A stretch of 64,000 nt of DNA from an uncultured beta proteobacterium (GCA_903875135.1 CAIQUZ010000037.1:19606-83605); one strand, 5' to 3'; counted from the first letter of the stretch, positions 56,354 to 64,000 are shown. Made by a program: numbers and translations. Notes: generated by a model not told the origin, from the letters alone.

Positions 56354-56734
56354 TCATGACTGATCTTTAAACGGACTGGTAATGACTAAAAAAACCAGAC
56401 TTTCTAGACCCGTATTATGTAATTCGTGAACCACTCCAGGAGGAATATAGGCTACATCATGCTCATGCATGATGTATTTTTGATCATCCACGATGAGTAA
56501 TCCTTCACCACTCAAGAAATGATAAATCTGTTCTTGAACTTGATGAACATGACTTTCTACAAACGCGCCAGGTTGATAAGTAGAGATTCGGTAATCGAAG
56601 ATTTTGCTATCTGTAGTGTTCGGAGAAACAATCTCTTTCGATAGCGCCCGGTCATAATGCCCCGGATATTGAATCCATGGCAACTCTGCAATATTACGGA
56701 TGACAGCTTGACGTTTTTTTTGATTTTTTTTCAT
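56354..56734 (-). CDS. Single-domain cupin with complete metal motif (likely start ATG 56734)
   Basis: PGAFVESHVHQVQEQIY and YIPPGVVHELHN (H-H-E-H). Confidence 0.87.
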   Translation of the reverse strand: MKKNQKKRQAVIRNIAELPWIQYPGHYDRALSKEIVSPNTTDSKIFDYRISTYQPGAFVESHVHQVQEQIYHFLSGEGLLIVDDQKYIMHEHDVAYIPPGVVHELHNTGLESLVFLVITSPFKDQS

Positions 56735-56747
56735 AGAGTTTTTCTGA

Positions 56748-58535
56748 CTAGGGTTGCCAAGGTTGACCAAAGATAGGTTCTTTATAAGGGATTGGTGGCA
56801 GTTGCCAAGTACCTGTTGAAGGCGGTCTAATCTCGGCACTGACGTGAACATCAATCACTGTAGGGCGACGATTCTGAATCGCTTGAGCCAAGACTCCCCG
56901 GAAATCTTCACTACGGGTTACAGTAAAGCCATCAGCTCCACAAGCTTTAGCCCACATTGCAAAATCAGGGTTATAACGTTCACCACCAGGGCCCTGAGTG
57001 CCCTTATAAAATGCAGTGCCAATCTCTCGACCCTCAAACATACCAATTTGAATATCTCGAATTGCTGACCAAGCAAAATTATTCCAAACTACCCAGATAC
57101 AAGGTAAGTTGTATTCAACAGCCGTTGCCACTACATGGGGAGCCATCATAAAACCACCATCACCCACCACCGCAATACAGGTTCTTTCTGGAGCTGCAAG
57201 CTGAGCACCAAGGACCCCACAAACTCCGAATCCCATCGAAGAATATCCCCAACTATTGAGCATGCTTTGCGGTCTCTTTGGCTTCCAAAATTGCATAAAC
57301 CAATTATGATGTACGCCAGAATCTAATAATAGGATCAAATCATCTGGAGCAACATCTTGGATGCCACGAACGATATACTCAGGTCGAATCGGAGTTTCAA
57401 TCTTCGAAAATTGAGGGTTGATAAATTGTCCCCACTCATCTTGCCAAACTTTAATGTCTGTATGCCACTGTTGATACGTTTGTTGTTGAATTTTCTTTTG
57501 CTGTGCTAGACCCTGAAGTAATTGTTGTGCAAAGATTTTTGCATCAGCAATCAAGCCAATGGTGGGTAAATAGTTTCTGCCAAGTTCCGTGGGGTCAATG
57601 TCTACCTGAATTAATTTAGTGATCGGAAAATTCCAAGAGTAACCAGGATACCACGAAGAGGAAGATCGATCATCAAATCGCGTACCAACACAAATTACCA
57701 AATCGGCATGACGACCTGCCTGATTGGCTGGATATGCGCCGTTACGACCAATGAAGCCGAGGGTTAAATCATCATCCGCAGGTACACACCCCATGCCATT
57801 CGGAGAAGTAATTACTGGAATCCCATACTCTTTTGATAACTGAGAAATTTCTGGCCCAGCTTCAGAAAGACTAACCCCTTGGCCAATAAAAAAAACCGGC
57901 CGTTGGGAACTCTGAATAAGTTCAATCACCTTGGCGATATCCTGCTGGTTTGCCCCTGGTCGATATTCTCCTAAGCGATGTGAAAGTTCTGGCACTTCCA
58001 CATCATCCGACTCTTGAAAAACATTATAAGGAATATCTAAATTGACAGGTCCAGGACGTCCTGTCAACATCGTATCAAATGACTGACGCAGTGCTAAAGG
58101 CAACATATCAACCCGTGATGGCTGAAAAGTTCTTTTCACAACAGGTCGTAAGACTTGAGCAAAATCAGCTTGATTATGGGTATATAGTTCTTGAAATGGC
58201 GCACGATTGGCTTGTGACGTGGGGACGTTCGCTGTGATGGCCAAAAACGCAGAAGAATCCGAAAGCGCAGTGGCTAAAGACATCACAATATTTGCCGACC
58301 CGGGGCCGGTTGAGGTTAAGGTTGCGACAGGTTGATGCTTCACTCGGAAATAAGCATCTGCCATGTGTCCTGCCGCTTGTTCATGCCTTGGTGAGATCAA
58401 GGTAATTTTGTCTTTTAGTTGATATAAGGCGTCTAAGATACCAACATTACCGTGTCCACAAATTCCAAAAATAAAGGGGACCTTTTGCTTAACTAAATAC
58501 TCAGCAATGACCTCCCCACCTTTCATCTTAGCCAT
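56748..58535 (-). CDS. ThDP-dependent enzyme, ALS-like/IolD-related
   Basis: FGICGHGNVG, RHEQAAGHMADAY, STGPGSAN, GDGGFMM...WNN. Confidence 0.9.
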   Translation of the reverse strand: MAKMKGGEVIAEYLVKQKVPFIFGICGHGNVGILDALYQLKDKITLISPRHEQAAGHMADAYFRVKHQPVATLTSTGPGSANIVMSLATALSDSSAFLAITANVPTSQANRAPFQELYTHNQADFAQVLRPVVKRTFQPSRVDMLPLALRQSFDTMLTGRPGPVNLDIPYNVFQESDDVEVPELSHRLGEYRPGANQQDIAKVIELIQSSQRPVFFIGQGVSLSEAGPEISQLSKEYGIPVITSPNGMGCVPADDDLTLGFIGRNGAYPANQAGRHADLVICVGTRFDDRSSSSWYPGYSWNFPITKLIQVDIDPTELGRNYLPTIGLIADAKIFAQQLLQGLAQQKKIQQQTYQQWHTDIKVWQDEWGQFINPQFSKIETPIRPEYIVRGIQDVAPDDLILLLDSGVHHNWFMQFWKPKRPQSMLNSWGYSSMGFGVCGVLGAQLAAPERTCIAVVGDGGFMMAPHVVATAVEYNLPCIWVVWNNFAWSAIRDIQIGMFEGREIGTAFYKGTQGPGGERYNPDFAMWAKACGADGFTVTRSEDFRGVLAQAIQNRRPTVIDVHVSAEIRPPSTGTWQLPPIPYKEPIFGQPWQP

Positions 58536-58671: not shown

Positions 58672-59643
58672 ATGCAAGGTCATTGGATAAGAAAGTTCGC
58701 TTTTTTGCTATTGTTATTGCTACTTTCATTTTGGGGAAATGCTCAAGAATTTCCCAATAAAACAATTCGTATTATTGTTCCATTTGCTCCAGGTGGTTCT
58801 AATGATGTGGTGATGCGATTACTTGCGCCTTCACTCTCTGAGGAGCTTGGTCAAGCTGTCGTTGTAGAAAATCGTCCTGGTGGAGGTGCGACCATCGGCA
58901 TGGATGTTGTCGCCAAATCAAAACCTGATGGCTATACCTTAGGTGTTGCCAATACCTCATTTGGTGCAAATCCATTTGTAATGGGCAAAATGCCCTTTGA
59001 CACCTTAAAGGACTTTACTCCTGTTTGTCTTGTCGGCAAAGTACCGCTCGTCGTTGTTGTTAACCCAGCGCTACCGGTTAAAAATATCAAAGAATTAATC
59101 GACTTCGCCAAAAAAAATCCTGACGCCATTAATTACGGATCTGCGGGAAATGCCAGTGCGCCACACTTGGCTGGTGCTTTATTTGAATATGTAACTGGCG
59201 CCAAGATGACCCACATCCCTTATAAAAGCGGTGGCGAGGCTACTGCAGCGTTACTCGGCAATGTCACGCAATTACAATTTGCTGCAGTTCCTTCCGCTAT
59301 TCAACAAATCCGGTCTAACCGTTTAATCCCCCTTGCAGTAACCACTCTCGATCGCGATGAAAGCCTACCTGAAGTACCAACCGTAGATCAATCTGGGGTA
59401 AAGGATTTTGATATGGCCGACTGGATTGGTATCGTAGTGCCTAACGGGACCCCAGATCCAATCGTTAAAAGACTCAATGAAGCCTTTACTAAAGCGCTTC
59501 TTAAACCTGAAAATCGTGCCAATTTATCTAAAGCTGGCACACGCCCGATTGGCGGATCTCCTGAGGACTTAAAAGCTTTCATCAACAAGGAATTAAATAC
59601 GTGGCAAAAAGTTGTTAAAGCAGCAAATATTAAAATTAATTAA
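58672..59643 (+). CDS. Bug/TctC substrate-binding protein
   Basis: FPNKTIRIIVPFAPGGSND, VENRPGGG, SKPDGYTL, HIPYKSG. Confidence 0.93.
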   Translation: MQGHWIRKFAFLLLLLLLSFWGNAQEFPNKTIRIIVPFAPGGSNDVVMRLLAPSLSEELGQAVVVENRPGGGATIGMDVVAKSKPDGYTLGVANTSFGANPFVMGKMPFDTLKDFTPVCLVGKVPLVVVVNPALPVKNIKELIDFAKKNPDAINYGSAGNASAPHLAGALFEYVTGAKMTHIPYKSGGEATAALLGNVTQLQFAAVPSAIQQIRSNRLIPLAVTTLDRDESLPEVPTVDQSGVKDFDMADWIGIVVPNGTPDPIVKRLNEAFTKALLKPENRANLSKAGTRPIGGSPEDLKAFINKELNTWQKVVKAANIKIN

Positions 59644-59658
59644 TAAGGATGAGTCAAA

Positions 59659-60372
59659 ATGCATCGAATTGGCATGTTATTACCAGCAACAAACATTGCT
59701 GTTGAAATTGAACTAAATCGTGTTTTACCAAAAAATTATCAACTCTTTATTTCAAGACTCAAAGTCAGTTCAGTCGATGAAAATGGCTGGAAAGAGCACG
59801 ATGCTGACATGGACTACCAAACCGAGTTAATTGCAACCATCAAGCCAGAAGTGATTGTGATGCTTCAAACTGCCGCCAGCTTCTATGGCGATGGTAACTA
59901 CGATGCTGATGTCGTCAAAAGAATTTCTGCAATCGCCAAGATACCTGCCATCACTACCGCTCATGCAATTGGCAGAGCTCTGAATGCTTTAGGTGCCAAA
60001 AAAATCGCCATGCTCTCCCCCTACAACGGAAATCTCGTGAGTCGTGCCCAAGAATACTATCGACGCATCCACCATCTTGACATTGTGAATGCTGAATTTT
60101 TTAATATGACAGATGTCAAAAAAATTATCGAATTAGGGCCTGAACCAGCTGCAATTGCAATCGAAAAATTAGCCCTAACAAAACCTGATGCCATTATTTT
60201 AGCTGGCGGTGCGTATCAAATCATGGACCAGATTGACACTTGGGAAAAGAAATTTGGATGCAACATCGTCTCAACCAACCAAGCCGCTATCTGGGGCTCC
60301 ATACAAGCTTTGGGTGGTACAGAAAAAATTTCAGGTTACGGAAAAATCCTTGAGATGATGCCTCGGGGTTAA
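59659..60372 (+). CDS. Asp/Glu racemase-superfamily protein (maleate isomerase / arylmalonate decarboxylase-like) lacking both catalytic Cys
   Basis: RIGMLLPATN..VEIE, ALNALGAKKIAMLSPY, VSTNQAAIW; Gln70 and Gly183 at the usual Cys positions. Confidence 0.85.
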   Translation: MHRIGMLLPATNIAVEIELNRVLPKNYQLFISRLKVSSVDENGWKEHDADMDYQTELIATIKPEVIVMLQTAASFYGDGNYDADVVKRISAIAKIPAITTAHAIGRALNALGAKKIAMLSPYNGNLVSRAQEYYRRIHHLDIVNAEFFNMTDVKKIIELGPEPAAIAIEKLALTKPDAIILAGGAYQIMDQIDTWEKKFGCNIVSTNQAAIWGSIQALGGTEKISGYGKILEMMPRG

Positions 60373-60394
60373 AAATAATGGGCGAGCTTGTCGA

Positions 60395-61471
60395 CTAAAG
60401 TGGTAAGCGAACAGATTGACCAGTCGCAACTGCTTTTTCGATGGCTAAGGTCGTTTCCAGGTTTTTTCGCGCCTGTATAGGTGTGCAGTGAACAGTCTTT
60501 TTCCCAGTCACCAATTGATCAAGCCAGGACCTTGTCTCATTCCCAAGAGATCCCCAAAAATCACCACATGCCCAGTCACCTGCAGTGTTACTCCCTAAGA
60601 AAGCCATATTGACGGCATGATCAGGCACATAAGCATGAGGTATCCCTCGATCCGAAAACAAAATGTGATCCATATGATCATCATCAATGATCATGGTTCC
60701 TTCAAGCCCTAACAACTCCAGTCGATCCGATTGCCCTAAGGTTGGATATGTCGCAGGTAAGGCATAACTAATACCTAAATTAATCACCGCCCCATCCGAA
60801 AAGGTAATAATGGCCCAAGTGACGTCATCCGCACCAAAGCCTGCGGCTTTAAAAATACCTGATTGACCGCGTGCAACAATCTCAACTGGATAACATTGAT
60901 CCTCGAGTAACCAGCACATTAAATCAACGTAATACGTCAACACATCAACGACTGGGGTAGCATGAGGATCTCTTTTTAAGATCGAAAATGCTTGTGATCG
61001 AGAGTTATAAACTCGTGCAGTTCCACCCACAATCTTTCCCAACCGCTGATGGAGCATTTGTTCTTTAGCACGCAAATAGCACTCTTTAAACCTGCGGCTA
61101 TAGCCAATATGTAAGCTGCCATTAGTTTCTTGCAAAACTTTTAAGATTCGATCTGCGTCTTGTAAATTCATCGCAAGAGGTTTTTCTACGAGCACGGGTT
61201 TACCCAACTCTAAGGCCTTGATAATCGGTGCTACATGATGATTTTCTGGCGTAGAAACAAACACTGCATTCACTTGAGGATGCCCAATAATCTCTTCATT
61301 ATTGGTCGAGTAATAATCGGCTTCAGATAGTTCCGCTAACTTTTTAGCCTGACTGATATCTTGATCAGAAATCGCCAAAAAATCGACGCAAGGATGTTGT
61401 GAGGCTAAGCGAGCCCGTAATGTCCCTATACGACCTGAACCGATCACTCCAATGCCTAATGGCTTACTCAT
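60395..61471 (-). CDS. Gfo/Idh/MocA-family oxidoreductase
   Basis: GIGVIGSGRIG, VFVSTPENHH, VLVEKPLA, IGYSRRF. Confidence 0.92.
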   Translation of the reverse strand: MSKPLGIGVIGSGRIGTLRARLASQHPCVDFLAISDQDISQAKKLAELSEADYYSTNNEEIIGHPQVNAVFVSTPENHHVAPIIKALELGKPVLVEKPLAMNLQDADRILKVLQETNGSLHIGYSRRFKECYLRAKEQMLHQRLGKIVGGTARVYNSRSQAFSILKRDPHATPVVDVLTYYVDLMCWLLEDQCYPVEIVARGQSGIFKAAGFGADDVTWAIITFSDGAVINLGISYALPATYPTLGQSDRLELLGLEGTMIIDDDHMDHILFSDRGIPHAYVPDHAVNMAFLGSNTAGDWACGDFWGSLGNETRSWLDQLVTGKKTVHCTPIQARKNLETTLAIEKAVATGQSVRLPL

Positions 61472-61661: not shown

Positions 61662-62627
61662 ATGAAATGGATCTTTAGTATTACATTGGCTGTTCAATCA
61701 TTTTTTTTAACTCCGATCTTTGCTGCAGATCCTTTCCCAAATAAGCCTCTTCGAATCATTGTTCCTTTAGCTCCAGGCGCAACCGCAGATTACCTAGCAA
61801 GATCACTCTCCGTTGAATTAAGTAAGTCGCTTGGTCAAACGGTCATTGTCGAAAACAAACCTGGTGGCAATCAAATCATCGGAACCAATGAACTGGCCAA
61901 ATCCAATCCCGATGGTTACACCATGGGACTGGCGATTACATCATTAATGATCAATCCTTACGTGGCAAAAAACATCCCCTACGATGCCATGAAAGACCTC
62001 ATCCCACTAGCGATGTTAGGCGTTATGCCAGGCCTAGTCACTGTGCATCCAAGTATTCCTGTAAAAAACATCACCGAACTCGTTGCTTACGCAAAAGCAC
62101 ACCCAGGAGAGCTTGCTTATGGACAGCCGGGTGGATTATCTTCTGGACATCTTACGATGGAGTTTTTAAAAAAAGAAGCCGGTATCGATCTTTTAAGTGT
62201 TCCCTATAAGGGTGGTGGGCCTGCTTTAACCGATCTTCTTGCCGGACGATTCCAAGTCTTTATCAATAGCCCAACTGCCACCCTTCCGTATGTAAAATCT
62301 GGCAACATTCGAGCGATTGCAACAACAGGATCCATGCGCCCAGTTGCTTTATCAGATATTCCAACGATCGCTGAATCGGGTTACCCCAATGTTGTCACGA
62401 ACGAATGGTACGCTTTGTTTCTTCCAGCAAAAACCCCCACACCAATCGTAAATCAACTGAATGCAGAAATTGTAAAAATTATGAATGGTCCCATCATGCA
62501 AAAACGACTCACTGATATTGGCGCGGAAACATTTACCGACAATCCAGAACAATTTGCTAAATTTATTGCCAAAGAAGATCAATTTTGGGGCAAACTCATC
62601 AAATCCCTAAACATCAAACCTGAATAA
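61662..62627 (+). CDS. Bug/TctC substrate-binding protein
   Basis: FPNKPLRIIVPLAPGATAD, VENKPGG, SNPDGYT, VPYKGGGPA. Confidence 0.93.
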   Translation: MKWIFSITLAVQSFFLTPIFAADPFPNKPLRIIVPLAPGATADYLARSLSVELSKSLGQTVIVENKPGGNQIIGTNELAKSNPDGYTMGLAITSLMINPYVAKNIPYDAMKDLIPLAMLGVMPGLVTVHPSIPVKNITELVAYAKAHPGELAYGQPGGLSSGHLTMEFLKKEAGIDLLSVPYKGGGPALTDLLAGRFQVFINSPTATLPYVKSGNIRAIATTGSMRPVALSDIPTIAESGYPNVVTNEWYALFLPAKTPTPIVNQLNAEIVKIMNGPIMQKRLTDIGAETFTDNPEQFAKFIAKEDQFWGKLIKSLNIKPE

Positions 62628-62636
62628 AATATATCT

Positions 62637-63413
62637 ATGACCCCCATTTACCCTGACTTAAAAAATAAAGTTGTCCTCGTTACCGGTGGTTCTAAGGGAA
62701 TCGGCTTTGCTATTGCCAGTGCATTTGCAGCGCAGGGCTGTGCGCTTCGTTTAGTCGCTAGAGATTCCGTTTCATTAGAGCAAGCACATCAAAAAATAAC
62801 AAAAGAATATGGTGTCGAAGTGAAGTCAATGGCGGTGAATTTATCGAATGACGCAAATATTGATCAATTAGCGCCTTTTTTTCCTGAGATAGATATCTTG
62901 ATCAACTCAGCAGGTGCGATGGGTCGTGGCAACCTTCAAGAAATTAATCCAGAAAAGTTTCGGGATGCTTGGGAAGGTAAGGTGATGTCCACCATCTTCT
63001 TAACGCGAAGAATTTATCCATTGATGAAGCAACGTCCCGATGGTGGCGCTATTGTTAACATTATTGGTATTGCCGCAGATCGCTTGAACTTTAAATCCAT
63101 CGGAACAACAACAGCGAACGCCGCCCTTGTTGCTTTTACTAAAGCAATGGGCTCAGAGAGTACGAATGACAATATACGGATTAATGGTATCAATCCAGGT
63201 TTAATCAGGACACCAAGAACAGAAGTACTAATCAATCCAACCTCGGATGCAGATCGTAAAGCGTATGAAAACCTCATGAAGAACTTACCCTACGGAAGAA
63301 TGGGCGAAGCTTCAGAAATTGCTAGCCTTGCGGTTTTTCTGGCGTCAAAACAAGCCTCTTATATTAGTGGAGATGTCATCACAGTTGATGGCGGCTCACG
63401 CTATCGTTATTGA
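62637..63413 (+). CDS. Short-chain dehydrogenase/reductase with atypical catalytic motif
   Basis: TGGSKGIG, LINSAG, RINGINPG, YISGDVITVDGG; GTTANAAL replaces YxxxK. Confidence 0.9.
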   Translation: MTPIYPDLKNKVVLVTGGSKGIGFAIASAFAAQGCALRLVARDSVSLEQAHQKITKEYGVEVKSMAVNLSNDANIDQLAPFFPEIDILINSAGAMGRGNLQEINPEKFRDAWEGKVMSTIFLTRRIYPLMKQRPDGGAIVNIIGIAADRLNFKSIGTTTANAALVAFTKAMGSESTNDNIRINGINPGLIRTPRTEVLINPTSDADRKAYENLMKNLPYGRMGEASEIASLAVFLASKQASYISGDVITVDGGSRYRY

Positions 63414-63444
63414 ACTATTACCACCTATTTGAAAGAAGATTATT

Positions 63445-64000
63445 ATGAAATATCGCTTACTTGGCCCCACCGGTTTATATGTCTCCGAACTATGTCTAGG
63501 AACAATGACATTTGGTAACCAAGGTCATTGGTCCGTTATGGGCGGCTTGCAACAAAAAGAAGTTAATACACTCGTACATACTGCTTTTGATCAAGGTATT
63601 AATTTTATTGATACTGCCAATGTGTACTCCTTCGGCGAGTCAGAGTCTTATTTAGGACAAGCCTTAAAAGACTGTCAATTGCCAAGAGATCAGATCATTA
63701 TTGCCACTAAGTCGACGGGCATTATGAATGAAACACCGAACGGTCGTGGCCAATCACGCCACCATATTTTTAATGAAGTCGACGCGAGTTTAAAAAGACT
63801 TCAACTCGACTATATCGACCTCTATCAATTTCATGGCTTTGATCCGCTCACCCGATTAGAAGAATCTTTAGCTGCATTAAATGACCTCGTACGCAGCGGT
63901 AAGATCCGATACATAGGACTTTGTAATATGGCAGCTTGGCAAATCATGAAAGCCTTAGGTATTTCACGAGCCAAAAACTACAGCGAATTTATTAGCGTAC
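63445..64000 (+). CDS. Aldo/keto reductase (5' part; runs off the right edge)
   Basis: Not in the ORF track; my translation from ATG 63445 gives MKYRLLGPTGLYVSELCLGTMTFG...GINFIDTANVYSFGESE...IATK...SLKRLQLDYIDLYQFHGFD...GKIRYIG. Confidence 0.95.
   Translation, partial: MKYRLLGPTGLYVSELCLGTMTFGNQGHWSVMGGLQQKEVNTLVHTAFDQGINFIDTANVYSFGESESYLGQALKDCQLPRDQIIIATKSTGIMNETPNGRGQSRHHIFNEVDASLKRLQLDYIDLYQFHGFDPLTRLEESLAALNDLVRSGKIRYIGLCNMAAWQIMKALGISRAKNYSEFISV

What the first reader, a model, noticed from the sequence alone, without database searches (positions are those of the whole stretch)
59659..60372. Racemase/isomerase-fold protein missing both catalytic cysteines
Seen: Gln70 (VMLQTAAS) and Gly183 (ILAGGAY) occupy the positions of the two-Cys pair; the only Cys (201) is outside both motifs; the ORF is intact and 15 nt behind a bug gene. 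Known: maleate isomerase and Asp/Glu racemases use two Cys, and arylmalonate decarboxylase uses one. Inference: new chemistry (e.g. cofactor-free decarboxylation using only the dioxyanion hole, relevant to malonate-type products) or a ligand-binding pseudoenzyme.
Basis: partly seen in the sequence, partly recalled or inferred. Interest (0 to 1): 0.55.

Follow-up and report, generated by a model that had tools for sequence, protein, structure and literature searches.

The report
Cysteine-free maleate-isomerase/AMDase-fold protein clade
This intact gene encodes a well-conserved relative of maleate isomerase and arylmalonate decarboxylase that has glutamine and glycine where those enzymes need cysteines. 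It is nearly always encoded directly behind its own nutrient-binding protein, so it is probably a thiol-free organic-acid enzyme whose chemistry nobody has tested.

Summary
ORF 59659-60372 (237 aa) is a full-length PF17645 protein. Its model has pLDDT 95 and TM 0.90-0.94 to maleate isomerase. Gln70 and Gly183 align with the two catalytic positions (maleate isomerase Cys76/Cys194, AMDase Gly74/Cys188). The only cysteine, Cys201, is not conserved.

It is not a decayed copy. Gln/Gly is fixed in a distinct clade (FastTree support 98) reaching down to about 25% identity, and dN/dS is 0.05-0.09.

The clade keeps the family's non-thiol scaffold. The close orthologues also keep AMDase's dioxyanion-hole and hydrophobic-pocket positions.

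The one constant neighbour is a co-evolving Bug/TctC binding protein, directly upstream in 29 of 34 close loci. Frequent neighbours are an orphan ThDP enzyme plus cupin, hydroxyacid dehydrogenases, MmgE/PrpD, and a one-cysteine paralogue.

Best reading (about 0.35 for the chemistry): a cytoplasmic, thiol-independent enzyme, most likely a decarboxylase of a beta-oxo or malonate-type acid. Rivals are other thiol-free chemistry, a non-catalytic binder, or a partner of the one-Cys paralogue.

I found no link to the window's pyrimidine/malonate island. I found no paper on such proteins.

This scan has noted cysteine-free branches of this fold on other DNA (e1-5138428 and others). It also noted this gene module in a related genome (e1-5233433).

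The parts
59659..60372 (+). Cysteine-free (Gln70/Gly183) member of the maleate isomerase / arylmalonate decarboxylase branch of the Asp/Glu racemase superfamily. 237 aa; no N-terminal extension before the first strand, so cytoplasmic is inferred.
   Evidence: PF17645 E 5e-23. PDB alignments. AF2 pLDDT 95.2. Foldseek TM 0.90-0.94 to 2xec/2xed/4fq5 and 0.86-0.90 to 3dg9/3ixl. dN/dS 0.05-0.09.
59866..59868 (+). Codon CAA = Gln70, at the position of maleate isomerase Cys76 / AMDase Gly74.
   Evidence: Invariant in all 28 clade members of alignment A2.
60205..60210 (+). Codons GGC GGT = Gly183-Gly184. Gly183 is at the position of maleate isomerase Cys194 / AMDase Cys188; Gly184 is at AMDase Gly189 (dioxyanion hole).
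   Evidence: Both are invariant in the Gln/Gly clade, whereas the two-cysteine relatives have Cys-Thr.
60259..60261 (+). Codon TGC = Cys201, the only cysteine. Not conserved and not at a catalytic position.
58672..59643 (+). bug1: Bug/TctC-family periplasmic solute-binding protein. It is the cognate partner, 15 nt upstream of the target.
   Evidence: PF03401 E 3e-73. Best solved relatives are BugE 2dvz, Bug27, TphC and BugD. An orthologue (53-97% identity) lies directly upstream in 29 of 34 close loci. Its dN tracks that of the target.
59644..59658 (+). 15-nt spacer with the AAGGA ribosome-binding motif. The pair probably forms one transcript.
   Evidence: No terminator-like site lies between the genes.
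56748..58535 (-). Acetolactate-synthase-like ThDP enzyme (N-terminal FGICGHGN motif), divergent from bug1. A frequent but not obligatory neighbour.
   Evidence: Pfam TPP_enzyme_N/M/C. No NCBIfam model reaches its cut-off. Best PDB matches are BbmA 8x3x at 5e-73 and plant ALS at about 1e-71. Present with the cupin in 13 of 34 close loci, including rearranged ones in Pigmentiphaga (L007) and a Comamonadaceae MAG (L008).
56354..56734 (-). Small metal-type cupin (HxHxxxE ... PxGxxHxxxN) directly behind the ThDP gene. The likely start is ATG 56734; the listed TTG start at 56854 overlaps the ThDP gene.
   Evidence: Cupin_2 E 1e-17. Sequence. Start candidates. Orthologues are 125-128 aa.
60395..61471 (-). 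Gfo/Idh/MocA oxidoreductase, convergent, 22 nt from the target's stop. It is a neighbour only in the Polynucleobacter-like group.
61662..64000 (+). Second Bug protein (61662-62627), SDR (62637-63413) and aldo/keto reductase (63445 onward, running off the window). This is lineage-specific context.

Best explanation
The gene encodes a functional cytoplasmic protein of a distinct Gln/Gly clade within the maleate isomerase / arylmalonate decarboxylase branch of the Asp/Glu racemase superfamily. It is co-transcribed with a dedicated periplasmic Bug (TctC-family) binding protein. That protein presumably hands a small carboxylic acid to the genome's single TctA transporter.

Inside the cell, the protein binds that acid, or its oxidised product, with the family's retained carboxylate-binding scaffold. 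It then catalyses a step that needs no enzyme thiol.

The step I think most likely is cofactor-free decarboxylation of a beta-oxo or malonate-type (di)carboxylate. In this picture the enolate or enediolate is held by the oxyanion hole (T71, the backbone NH of residue 72, Y122, G184, possibly the Gln70 amide). The leaving carboxylate sits in the hydrophobic pocket (V36, V39, W44, V/P153, I156). Protonation comes from solvent. The substrate would be supplied by neighbouring hydroxyacid dehydrogenases, and the product would go on to ThDP/aldehyde-dehydrogenase chemistry.

Shown: the fold, the register, fixation of Gln/Gly in the clade, purifying selection, and linkage to the Bug gene.
Inferred: that it is an enzyme, the type of reaction, and the kind of substrate.
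For: Fold and register.

Clade-wide fixation: Gln70, Gly183 and Gly184 are fixed, with further clade-specific positions Gln54, Asp50, Tyr81, Arg88 and Thr206. The family-wide non-thiol scaffold is kept (Asn12, Glu16, Arg33, Thr71, Ser74, Thr99, Pro121, Asn207, Trp212). The clade is one side of a branch with 98% SH-like support.

Selection: dN/dS is 0.05-0.09, like the neighbouring bug gene.

AMDase criteria: of the 12 published criteria (PMC4996985 Table 4), the dioxyanion-hole positions T75, Y126 and G189 are kept as T71, Y122 and G184; S76 is A72. All five hydrophobic-pocket positions are hydrophobic (V36, V39, W44, V153, I156; mapped on the alignment, posterior 8-9 in that loop). They are uniformly so in the 18 close orthologues, while two-Cys relatives often have polar residues there.

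Context: the Bug gene is directly upstream in 29 of 34 close loci. Hydroxyacid-oxidising enzymes are the commonest other neighbours:
- HIBADH-type dehydrogenase just before bug1 in L010, L100 and L101.
- SDRs in L001, L003, L005, L008, L097-L099 and L121.
- Gfo/Idh/MocA in the Polynucleobacter-like group.
- Also MmgE/PrpD, CMD-family decarboxylase, ThDP enzyme, ALDH and cupin.
Against: No member of the clade has been assayed, and I found no paper on it.

In AMDase, Cys188 is described as the only proton donor (PMC4996985). A site with Gly there and Gln opposite has no obvious general acid.

In the more distant half of the Gln/Gly clade, Tyr122 is Phe in 5 of 10 sequences and the pocket positions vary. 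The AMDase-like pocket argument therefore holds only for the close orthologues.

I could not inspect model coordinates, so which conserved side chains (Asp48, Tyr53, Tyr186) face the pocket is unknown.

The neighbourhood varies apart from the Bug gene. The ThDP/cupin module usually occurs without this protein: 19 fetched loci of other Burkholderiales with a 59-72% ThDP orthologue, none with the Gln/Gly protein. No fixed pathway therefore pins down the reaction.
Confidence: 0.35

Rival explanations
1. It is an enzyme, but with other thiol-independent chemistry on a di- or tricarboxylate: keto-enol tautomerisation, a 1,3-proton shift, hydration/dehydration, or epimerisation. A clade-specific residue would act as acid/base, for example Asp48/Asp50/Tyr53 of the conserved HDADxDYQ helix, or Tyr122.
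For: The clade has its own conserved acidic/polar helix (Asp48, Asp50, Tyr53, Gln54), which is variable in two-Cys relatives. This helix begins at Trp44, the counterpart of AMDase pocket residue Tyr48.

More distant clade members sit beside an aconitase-family hydro-lyase, an RraA-like aldolase and TRAP/Bug transporters (L019, L013). Closer ones sit beside MmgE/PrpD. These enzyme types act on unsaturated or hydroxylated tricarboxylates.
Against: Whether any of these residues reaches the substrate is untested, because no coordinates were available.

Asp48 and Tyr53 are kept in only 7 of 10 distant members.

The known isomerisation mechanism of this branch needs a nucleophilic Cys, as seen in the covalent succinyl-cysteine intermediate of 2xed (title).
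Confidence: 0.25
2. It is a non-catalytic pseudoenzyme. It would act as a cytoplasmic ligand-binding protein (a sink, chaperone or sensor) for the acid imported through its Bug partner.
For: Both catalytic residues are gone and no evident acid/base replaces them. The binding scaffold is conserved. The only universal neighbour is a binding protein, not an enzyme. The fold is related to periplasmic binding proteins (weak Foldseek matches).
Against: It sits in catabolic operons in the usual position of an enzyme gene. It has no DNA-binding or signalling domain. The replacement Gln and its partner Gln54 are invariant rather than merely tolerated, which suggests a specific role at the reaction centre. 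I know of no precedent for such a cytoplasmic partner of TTT uptake systems (from memory).
Confidence: 0.2
3. It works only together with the one-cysteine paralogue (Ala/Leu at position 70, Cys at 183). It would be either a subunit of a hetero-oligomer or the enzyme for the adjacent step.
For: The one-Cys paralogue follows or neighbours the gene in L007, L008, L011, L012, L104 and L110.

An orthologue (47-70% identical) is in the window's own genome, 73 kb upstream. Orthologues are also in 3 of 5 further genomes that carry the Gln/Gly gene. By contrast it occurs in 18 of 401 sampled Burkholderiales. All 4 sampled genomes with a Gln/Gly gene have it (one of them, G205, is unpublished).
Against: In the Polynucleobacter-like genomes the two genes are unlinked, and each has its own Bug gene. 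It was not found in G404 and G405 (completeness not reported).

Related genomes are not independent, and large catabolic genomes carry many such genes. The one-Cys family also pairs with two-Cys paralogues (L087, L091), so tandem paralogues are a general habit of the family.
Confidence: 0.15
4. It is a recently degenerated copy of a maleate isomerase or AMDase, or the alignment register is wrong.
For: None beyond the absence of the cysteines.
Against: The register agrees between HMMER, MAFFT and the structure model. Gln/Gly is fixed in a deep clade. dN/dS is 0.05-0.09.
Confidence: 0.02

Closest known systems
Maleate cis-trans isomerase (EC 5.2.1.1; Nocardia farcinica 2xec/2xed, Pseudomonas putida S16 Iso 4fq5/4fq7)
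   Same: It is the closest solved fold (TM 0.90-0.94, rmsd 1.7-2.2 A, 20-22% identity). The length is the same. The N-terminal P-x-x-N-x-x-x-E loop, Arg33, Thr71, Tyr122, the T/S-N-Q loop and Trp212 are shared.
   Different: Both catalytic cysteines are replaced: Cys76 by Gln70 and Cys194 by Gly183. The residue after the second Cys is Gly, not Thr. The position I map to the second substrate-binding Asn of maleate isomerase (Asn163, role from memory) is Val/Pro in the close orthologues. A covalent thiol mechanism is impossible.
Arylmalonate decarboxylase (AMDase, EC 4.1.1.76; Bordetella bronchiseptica 3dg9, 3ip8, 3dtv, 2vlb)
   Same: It is the best Pfam and NCBIfam match, with TM 0.86-0.90. Dioxyanion-hole positions T75, Y126 and G189 are kept. 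All five hydrophobic-pocket positions are hydrophobic. The Gly-Gly after the strand resembles AMDase's C-G-G. AMDase genes also commonly neighbour TTT/Bug genes (PMC4996985).
   Different: It lacks the proton donor Cys188 (Gly183) and has Gln instead of Gly74. The aryl-pocket residues Pro15 and Gly190 are Ala10 and Ala185. The NCBIfam arylmal_decarb score is 72.5 against a cut-off of 225. It branches apart from the two-Cys and one-Cys relatives sampled.
Ectoine utilisation protein EutA (TIGR02990)
   Same: It is the second-best curated family match, over the full length (E 4e-17). EutA is also an uncharacterised AMDase-like protein in a catabolic cluster (PMC3187862).
   Different: The score is 62.5 against a cut-off of 318. 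No eutBCDE-type neighbours are present.
Other cysteine-free or one-cysteine branches of the same fold noted by this scan (e1-5138428, e1-5180601, e1-2277464, e1-2271509)
   Same: They show the same phenomenon: conserved, uncharacterised branches without the catalytic thiols. One of them is described as usually lying next to binding-protein genes.
   Different: I could not compare the sequences, so whether any is this Gln/Gly clade is unknown. Some carry His/Gly and travel with flavoenzymes instead.

Membership tests
Asp/Glu racemase superfamily, maleate isomerase/AMDase branch (Pfam PF17645) | Full-length match to the family profile above the curated cut-off | tested here: met
   82.4 bits against a cut-off of 25.9; residues 4-230 match profile positions 1-227 of 228.
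Asp/Glu racemase superfamily, maleate isomerase/AMDase branch (Pfam PF17645) | Two-domain alpha/beta fold superposable on solved members | tested here: met
   AF2 pLDDT 95.2, pTM 0.92. TM 0.90-0.94 to maleate isomerase and 0.86-0.90 to AMDase.
Asp/Glu racemase superfamily, maleate isomerase/AMDase branch (Pfam PF17645) | One or two catalytic cysteines, as stated for the fold in bioRxiv 10.64898/2026.01.14.699310 | tested here: not met
   Gln70 and Gly183 occupy both positions. The only Cys (201) is unconserved.
Maleate cis-trans isomerase (EC 5.2.1.1) | Nucleophilic Cys76 and acid/base Cys194 (N. farcinica numbering) | tested here: not met
   Gln70 and Gly183.
Maleate cis-trans isomerase (EC 5.2.1.1) | Isomerisation of maleate to fumarate | not testable with these tools
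   This needs an enzyme assay.
Arylmalonate decarboxylase (12 criteria of PMC4996985 Table 4) | Criterion 10: Gly74 and Cys188 | tested here: not met
   Gln70 and Gly183.
Arylmalonate decarboxylase (12 criteria of PMC4996985 Table 4) | Criteria 2-4: dioxyanion hole T75, S76, Y126, G189 | tested here: inconclusive
   T71, Y122 and G184 are kept. S76 is Ala72, so the side-chain OH is lost while the backbone NH remains.
Arylmalonate decarboxylase (12 criteria of PMC4996985 Table 4) | Criteria 5-9: hydrophobic pocket L40, V43, Y48, V156, M159 | tested here: met
   V36, V39, W44, V153 and I156 are identical or physicochemically similar, which the authors allow. The mapping was done by hand on the HMMER alignment.
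Arylmalonate decarboxylase (12 criteria of PMC4996985 Table 4) | Criterion 1: P14 P15 of the large aryl pocket; criteria 11-12: motifs LMGTSLSF and ILLSCGGL | tested here: not met
   P9-A10; the motifs read MLQTAASF and IILAGGAY.
Arylmalonate decarboxylase (NCBIfam NF052327 equivalog) | Score above the curated cut-off | tested here: not met
   72.5 bits against 225.
EutA (TIGR02990 equivalog) | Score above the curated cut-off | tested here: not met
   62.5 bits against 318.

The most novel reading that the evidence does not exclude
The Gln/Gly clade is a natural, cofactor-free and thiol-free decarboxylase (or other carbanion-handling enzyme) of the Asp/Glu racemase fold. It would stabilise an enolate or enediolate with only the oxyanion hole plus an invariant Gln. 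That would be a catalytic solution not described for this superfamily, acting on an unidentified freshwater organic acid captured by a dedicated Bug protein.
Probability: 0.3. Interest if true: 0.65.

Novelty: new variant of a known kind. Interest (0 to 1): 0.42.

Why it matters
The maleate isomerase/AMDase branch is studied as a source of cofactor-free biocatalysts, and its chemistry is described as resting on one or two cysteines. AMDase's own natural substrate is still unknown.

A conserved natural clade that keeps the oxyanion hole and hydrophobic pocket but has no thiol would matter in one of two ways. It would either show a second way to run carbanion chemistry on this scaffold, or be a clear case of an enzyme fold turned into a binder.

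The gene is welded to a specific Bug binding protein. Finding that protein's ligand would give the substrate directly. It would also give a first ligand for one of the many orphan Bug proteins, and a handle on the widespread orphan ThDP-cupin module.

Without an assay it remains an annotation-level finding.

Tried and rejected
Neighbourhoods were therefore rebuilt from genome and metagenome loci with my own ORF calling, BLAST clustering and Pfam scans.
- Literature searches for cysteine-free, AMDase-like or maleate-isomerase-like proteins and for PF17645 found nothing on such proteins. Structural papers on maleate isomerase are not in the library, so the role of its Asn residues is from memory.
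- The ESM Atlas search gave only generic 'maleate isomerase/decarboxylase family' clusters.
- NCBIfam named none of the neighbours above cut-off: ThDP enzyme, ALDH, SDRs, HIBADH, MmgE/PrpD, AKR. No known pathway could be assigned.
- I tested whether the ThDP-cupin module defines the function and rejected it as obligatory. In 19 fetched loci of other Burkholderiales with a 59-72% ThDP orthologue, the Gln/Gly gene never appears. In most of those long enough to judge, the module is ThDP-ALDH-cupin; in the one locus I annotated (L063) it also holds a NAD-dependent epimerase and a Liv-type binding protein. Some close Gln/Gly loci lack the ThDP module (L010, L100-L102).
- A link to the window's barbiturase/pyrimidine island was rejected because there is no conserved association.
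- Cys201 as a displaced catalytic residue was rejected.
- The maximum-likelihood tree with the default method did not finish in time; FastTree was used instead, and the root is not established.

Full report
**Observation**

The ORF at 59659-60372 (+) is intact and encodes 237 aa. It matches Pfam PF17645 (Amdase) over its whole length at E 5e-23. It is weaker than the curated cut-offs of the two nearest NCBIfam equivalogs: arylmalonate decarboxylase 72.5 against 225, and EutA 62.5 against 318.

phmmer alignments to solved structures place Gln70 opposite Gly74 of arylmalonate decarboxylase (AMDase) and the first catalytic Cys of Nocardia farcinica maleate isomerase. They place Gly183 opposite AMDase Cys188 and the second maleate isomerase Cys. 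Two independent MAFFT alignments give the same register.

An AlphaFold2 model built on 121 family sequences is confident: mean pLDDT 95.2, pTM 0.92. It superposes on maleate isomerase (TM 0.90-0.94) and AMDase (TM 0.86-0.90).

The protein has a single cysteine, Cys201. It is Cys only in the closest orthologues and Gly/Val/Ile/Lys/Leu elsewhere, and it lies just before strand 202-205. The upstream gene is a TctC/Bug binding protein ending 15 nt before the start codon, with an AAGGA motif in the spacer.

**Not a decayed copy**

Among 28 homologues of 42-88% identity, Gln70 is invariant and Gly183 is 90% or more conserved.

An exhaustive search of 1.84 billion representatives found 1867 relatives. 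Of the 150 near-full-length sequences examined:
- 85 have Cys/Cys.
- 39 have Gln/Gly, plus 4 truncated sequences that have Gln.
- The rest show other combinations.

In a FastTree phylogeny the 28 Gln/Gly sequences form one side of a branch with 98% SH-like support. The root is not established.

Pairwise dN/dS against the two orthologues with unsaturated dS is 0.05 and 0.09. This is like the neighbouring bug gene at 0.03-0.07.

**What the clade keeps and changes**

Across the whole Gln/Gly clade, down to about 25% identity, the family-wide non-thiol positions are retained: Asn12, Glu16, Arg33, Thr71, Ser74, Thr99, Pro121, Asn207 and Trp212.

The clade-specific fixed positions are Gln70, Gly183, Gly184 (Thr in two-Cys relatives), Thr206 (Ser), Gln54 (Ala), Asp50, Tyr81 and Arg88.

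I mapped the twelve published AMDase criteria (PMC4996985, Table 4) by hand onto the alignment:

| AMDase criterion | AMDase residues | This protein | Result |
|---|---|---|---|
| Dioxyanion hole | T75, S76, Y126, G189 | T71, A72, Y122, G184 | three kept, S76 lost |
| Hydrophobic pocket | L40, V43, Y48, V156, M159 | V36, V39, W44, V153, I156 | all hydrophobic |
| Catalytic pair | G74, C188 | Q70, G183 | not met |
| Aryl pocket | P14, P15 | P9, A10 | partly lost |

The five pocket positions are uniformly hydrophobic in the 18 close orthologues. They are often polar in two-Cys relatives.

In the distant half of the clade the picture is looser. Tyr122 is Phe in 5 of 10 sequences and the pocket positions vary.

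A clade-specific acidic helix (H-D-A-D-x-D-Y-Q, residues 47-54) starts at Trp44, the counterpart of an AMDase pocket residue.

**Genomic context**

I gathered 19 loci from species genomes and 34 from metagenomes. I classified the neighbours by BLAST against the window's genes and by Pfam.

Among the 34 loci of the close clade (53% identity or more, window included):
- An orthologue of the upstream Bug protein (53-97% identity) lies directly in front of the gene in 29.
- The ThDP enzyme plus small cupin found divergently upstream in the window recur in 13. This includes rearranged operons in Pigmentiphaga soli (L007) and a Comamonadaceae MAG (L008), where an aldehyde dehydrogenase lies between the cupin and the ThDP gene.
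- Other recurrent neighbours are SDRs, HIBADH-type beta-hydroxyacid dehydrogenases (immediately before the Bug gene in L010, L100 and L101), Gfo/Idh/MocA, MmgE/PrpD, a CMD-family protein and further Bug genes.
- More distant clade members sit by aconitase-family and RraA-like genes with TRAP and Bug transporters (L019, L013), or by a luciferase-like monooxygenase (L015 by Pfam; L014 and L018 by BLAST clustering with it).

The genome has one TctA, so the Bug proteins are orphan receptors sharing one membrane unit.

**The ThDP-cupin pair is a module of its own**

In an even sample of 401 Burkholderiales genomes, 28 carry a close ThDP orthologue.

In 19 fetched loci of other genomes with a 59-72% ThDP orthologue, neither the Gln/Gly gene nor its Bug partner was nearby. 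In most of those long enough to judge, the ThDP gene is followed by an ALDH and a cupin. In the one locus I annotated in full (L063), a NAD-dependent epimerase and a Liv-type binding protein also belong to the string, and two FAD_binding_2 flavoproteins lie divergently upstream.

The Gln/Gly gene itself is rare: 4 of 401 genomes, only the window's own at high identity. One of the four, G205, is an unpublished genome, so that count and the next one rest partly on it.

No NCBIfam equivalog names any neighbour. The pathway is therefore unassigned.

**A one-cysteine paralogue**

A paralogue with Ala/Leu at position 70 and Cys at 183 follows or neighbours the Gln/Gly gene in L007, L008, L011, L012, L104 and L110.

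- Its orthologue (47-70% identity) is in the window's own genome at contig C37:6018-6749. It lies behind a CMD-family gene and a Bug gene, and converges on a FAD_binding_2 flavoprotein.
- It is also found in 3 of 5 other carrier genomes tested.
- By contrast it occurs in 18 of 401 sampled Burkholderiales.

This suggests a shared pathway or partnership. However, related genomes are not independent, the two genes are unlinked in the Polynucleobacter-like group, and the one-Cys family also pairs with two-Cys paralogues.

**Interpretation**

Several things are shown. This is a functional, selected, cytoplasmic-type protein of a distinct Gln/Gly clade. It retains the carboxylate-binding scaffold of its family. 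It cannot use the thiol mechanisms of maleate isomerase or AMDase. It is genetically tied to one Bug binding protein.

The reaction is inferred. My ranking is:
1. Thiol-independent decarboxylation of a beta-oxo or malonate-type acid, about 0.35. Two observations favour it: the oxyanion hole and hydrophobic pocket are kept in the close orthologues, and hydroxyacid dehydrogenases that would generate beta-oxo acids are the commonest enzymatic neighbours.
2. Other thiol-free proton-transfer chemistry using the clade-specific acidic helix, 0.25.
3. A non-catalytic binder, 0.2.
4. Obligate partnership with the one-Cys paralogue, 0.15.

**Novelty and literature**

Papers in the library describe the fold as defined by one or two catalytic cysteines (bioRxiv 10.64898/2026.01.14.699310) and Cys188 as AMDase's only proton donor (PMC4996985). 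PMC4996985 notes that many database 'AMDases' lack essential features, but does not describe a cysteine-free clade. I found no paper on such proteins.

This scan has already reported cysteine-free and one-cysteine branches of the fold on other DNA. It also noted the same gene module in a related genome. The finding is therefore one more, well-delimited case of a recurring phenomenon: a new variant of a known kind, of moderate interest until an assay is done.

Noticed in passing
window 56354-58535 (-); L053-L069, L063: The ThDP enzyme (N-terminal FGICGHGN) plus small metal cupin is a widespread orphan module. Close ThDP orthologues occur in 28 of 401 sampled Burkholderiales. In most fetched loci the string is ThDP-ALDH-cupin; in L063 it also holds a NAD-dependent epimerase and a Liv-type binding protein, with two FAD_binding_2 flavoproteins divergently upstream. 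No curated family names any of these genes.
   Followed up: partly
outside the window: G000 contig C37:6018-6749 (-), locus L078: A one-cysteine paralogue (Leu at position 70, Cys at 183) lies behind a CMD-family gene and its own Bug gene. It converges on a 575-aa FAD_binding_2 flavoprotein and a GFA-family gene. Its orthologues sit next to the Gln/Gly gene in other taxa.
   Followed up: partly
outside the window: G000 contig C109:86149-86931 (ORF 1225-2007 of locus L022; Pfam match at 86425-86916): A third family paralogue has His and Gly at the two catalytic positions (HGHSIHS ... HVGTNLP). This is another cysteine-free type in the same genome.
   Followed up: no
window 56734-56854: The longest cupin ORF starts at TTG 56854 and overlaps the ThDP gene by 107 nt. 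Orthologues are 125-128 aa, so ATG 56734 (126 aa), 14 nt after the ThDP stop, is the likelier start.
   Followed up: partly
window 60372-60395; L001, L003, L005, L097-L099: The target and the convergent Gfo/Idh/MocA gene are only 22 nt apart, with no terminator-like hairpin found. In L001, L003 and L099 an SDR, an MmgE/PrpD gene and another Bug gene lie between them. L005 shows the same three genes before its contig ends, and L097 and L098 show at least the SDR. The window therefore carries a shorter form of the cluster.
   Followed up: partly
G000 contig C114:167989-169245: Only one TctA membrane component was found in the 2.7-Mb genome, although this window and the 20 kb upstream of it on the same contig hold several Bug genes. 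The Bug proteins are orphan receptors that must share it.
   Followed up: no
alignment A2: P0034, P0057, P0058: The earliest-branching Gln/Gly sequences read C-Q-T/S, with a Cys immediately before the invariant Gln. Eight of 73 two-Cys relatives also have Cys at that position, so it may be without meaning.
   Followed up: no
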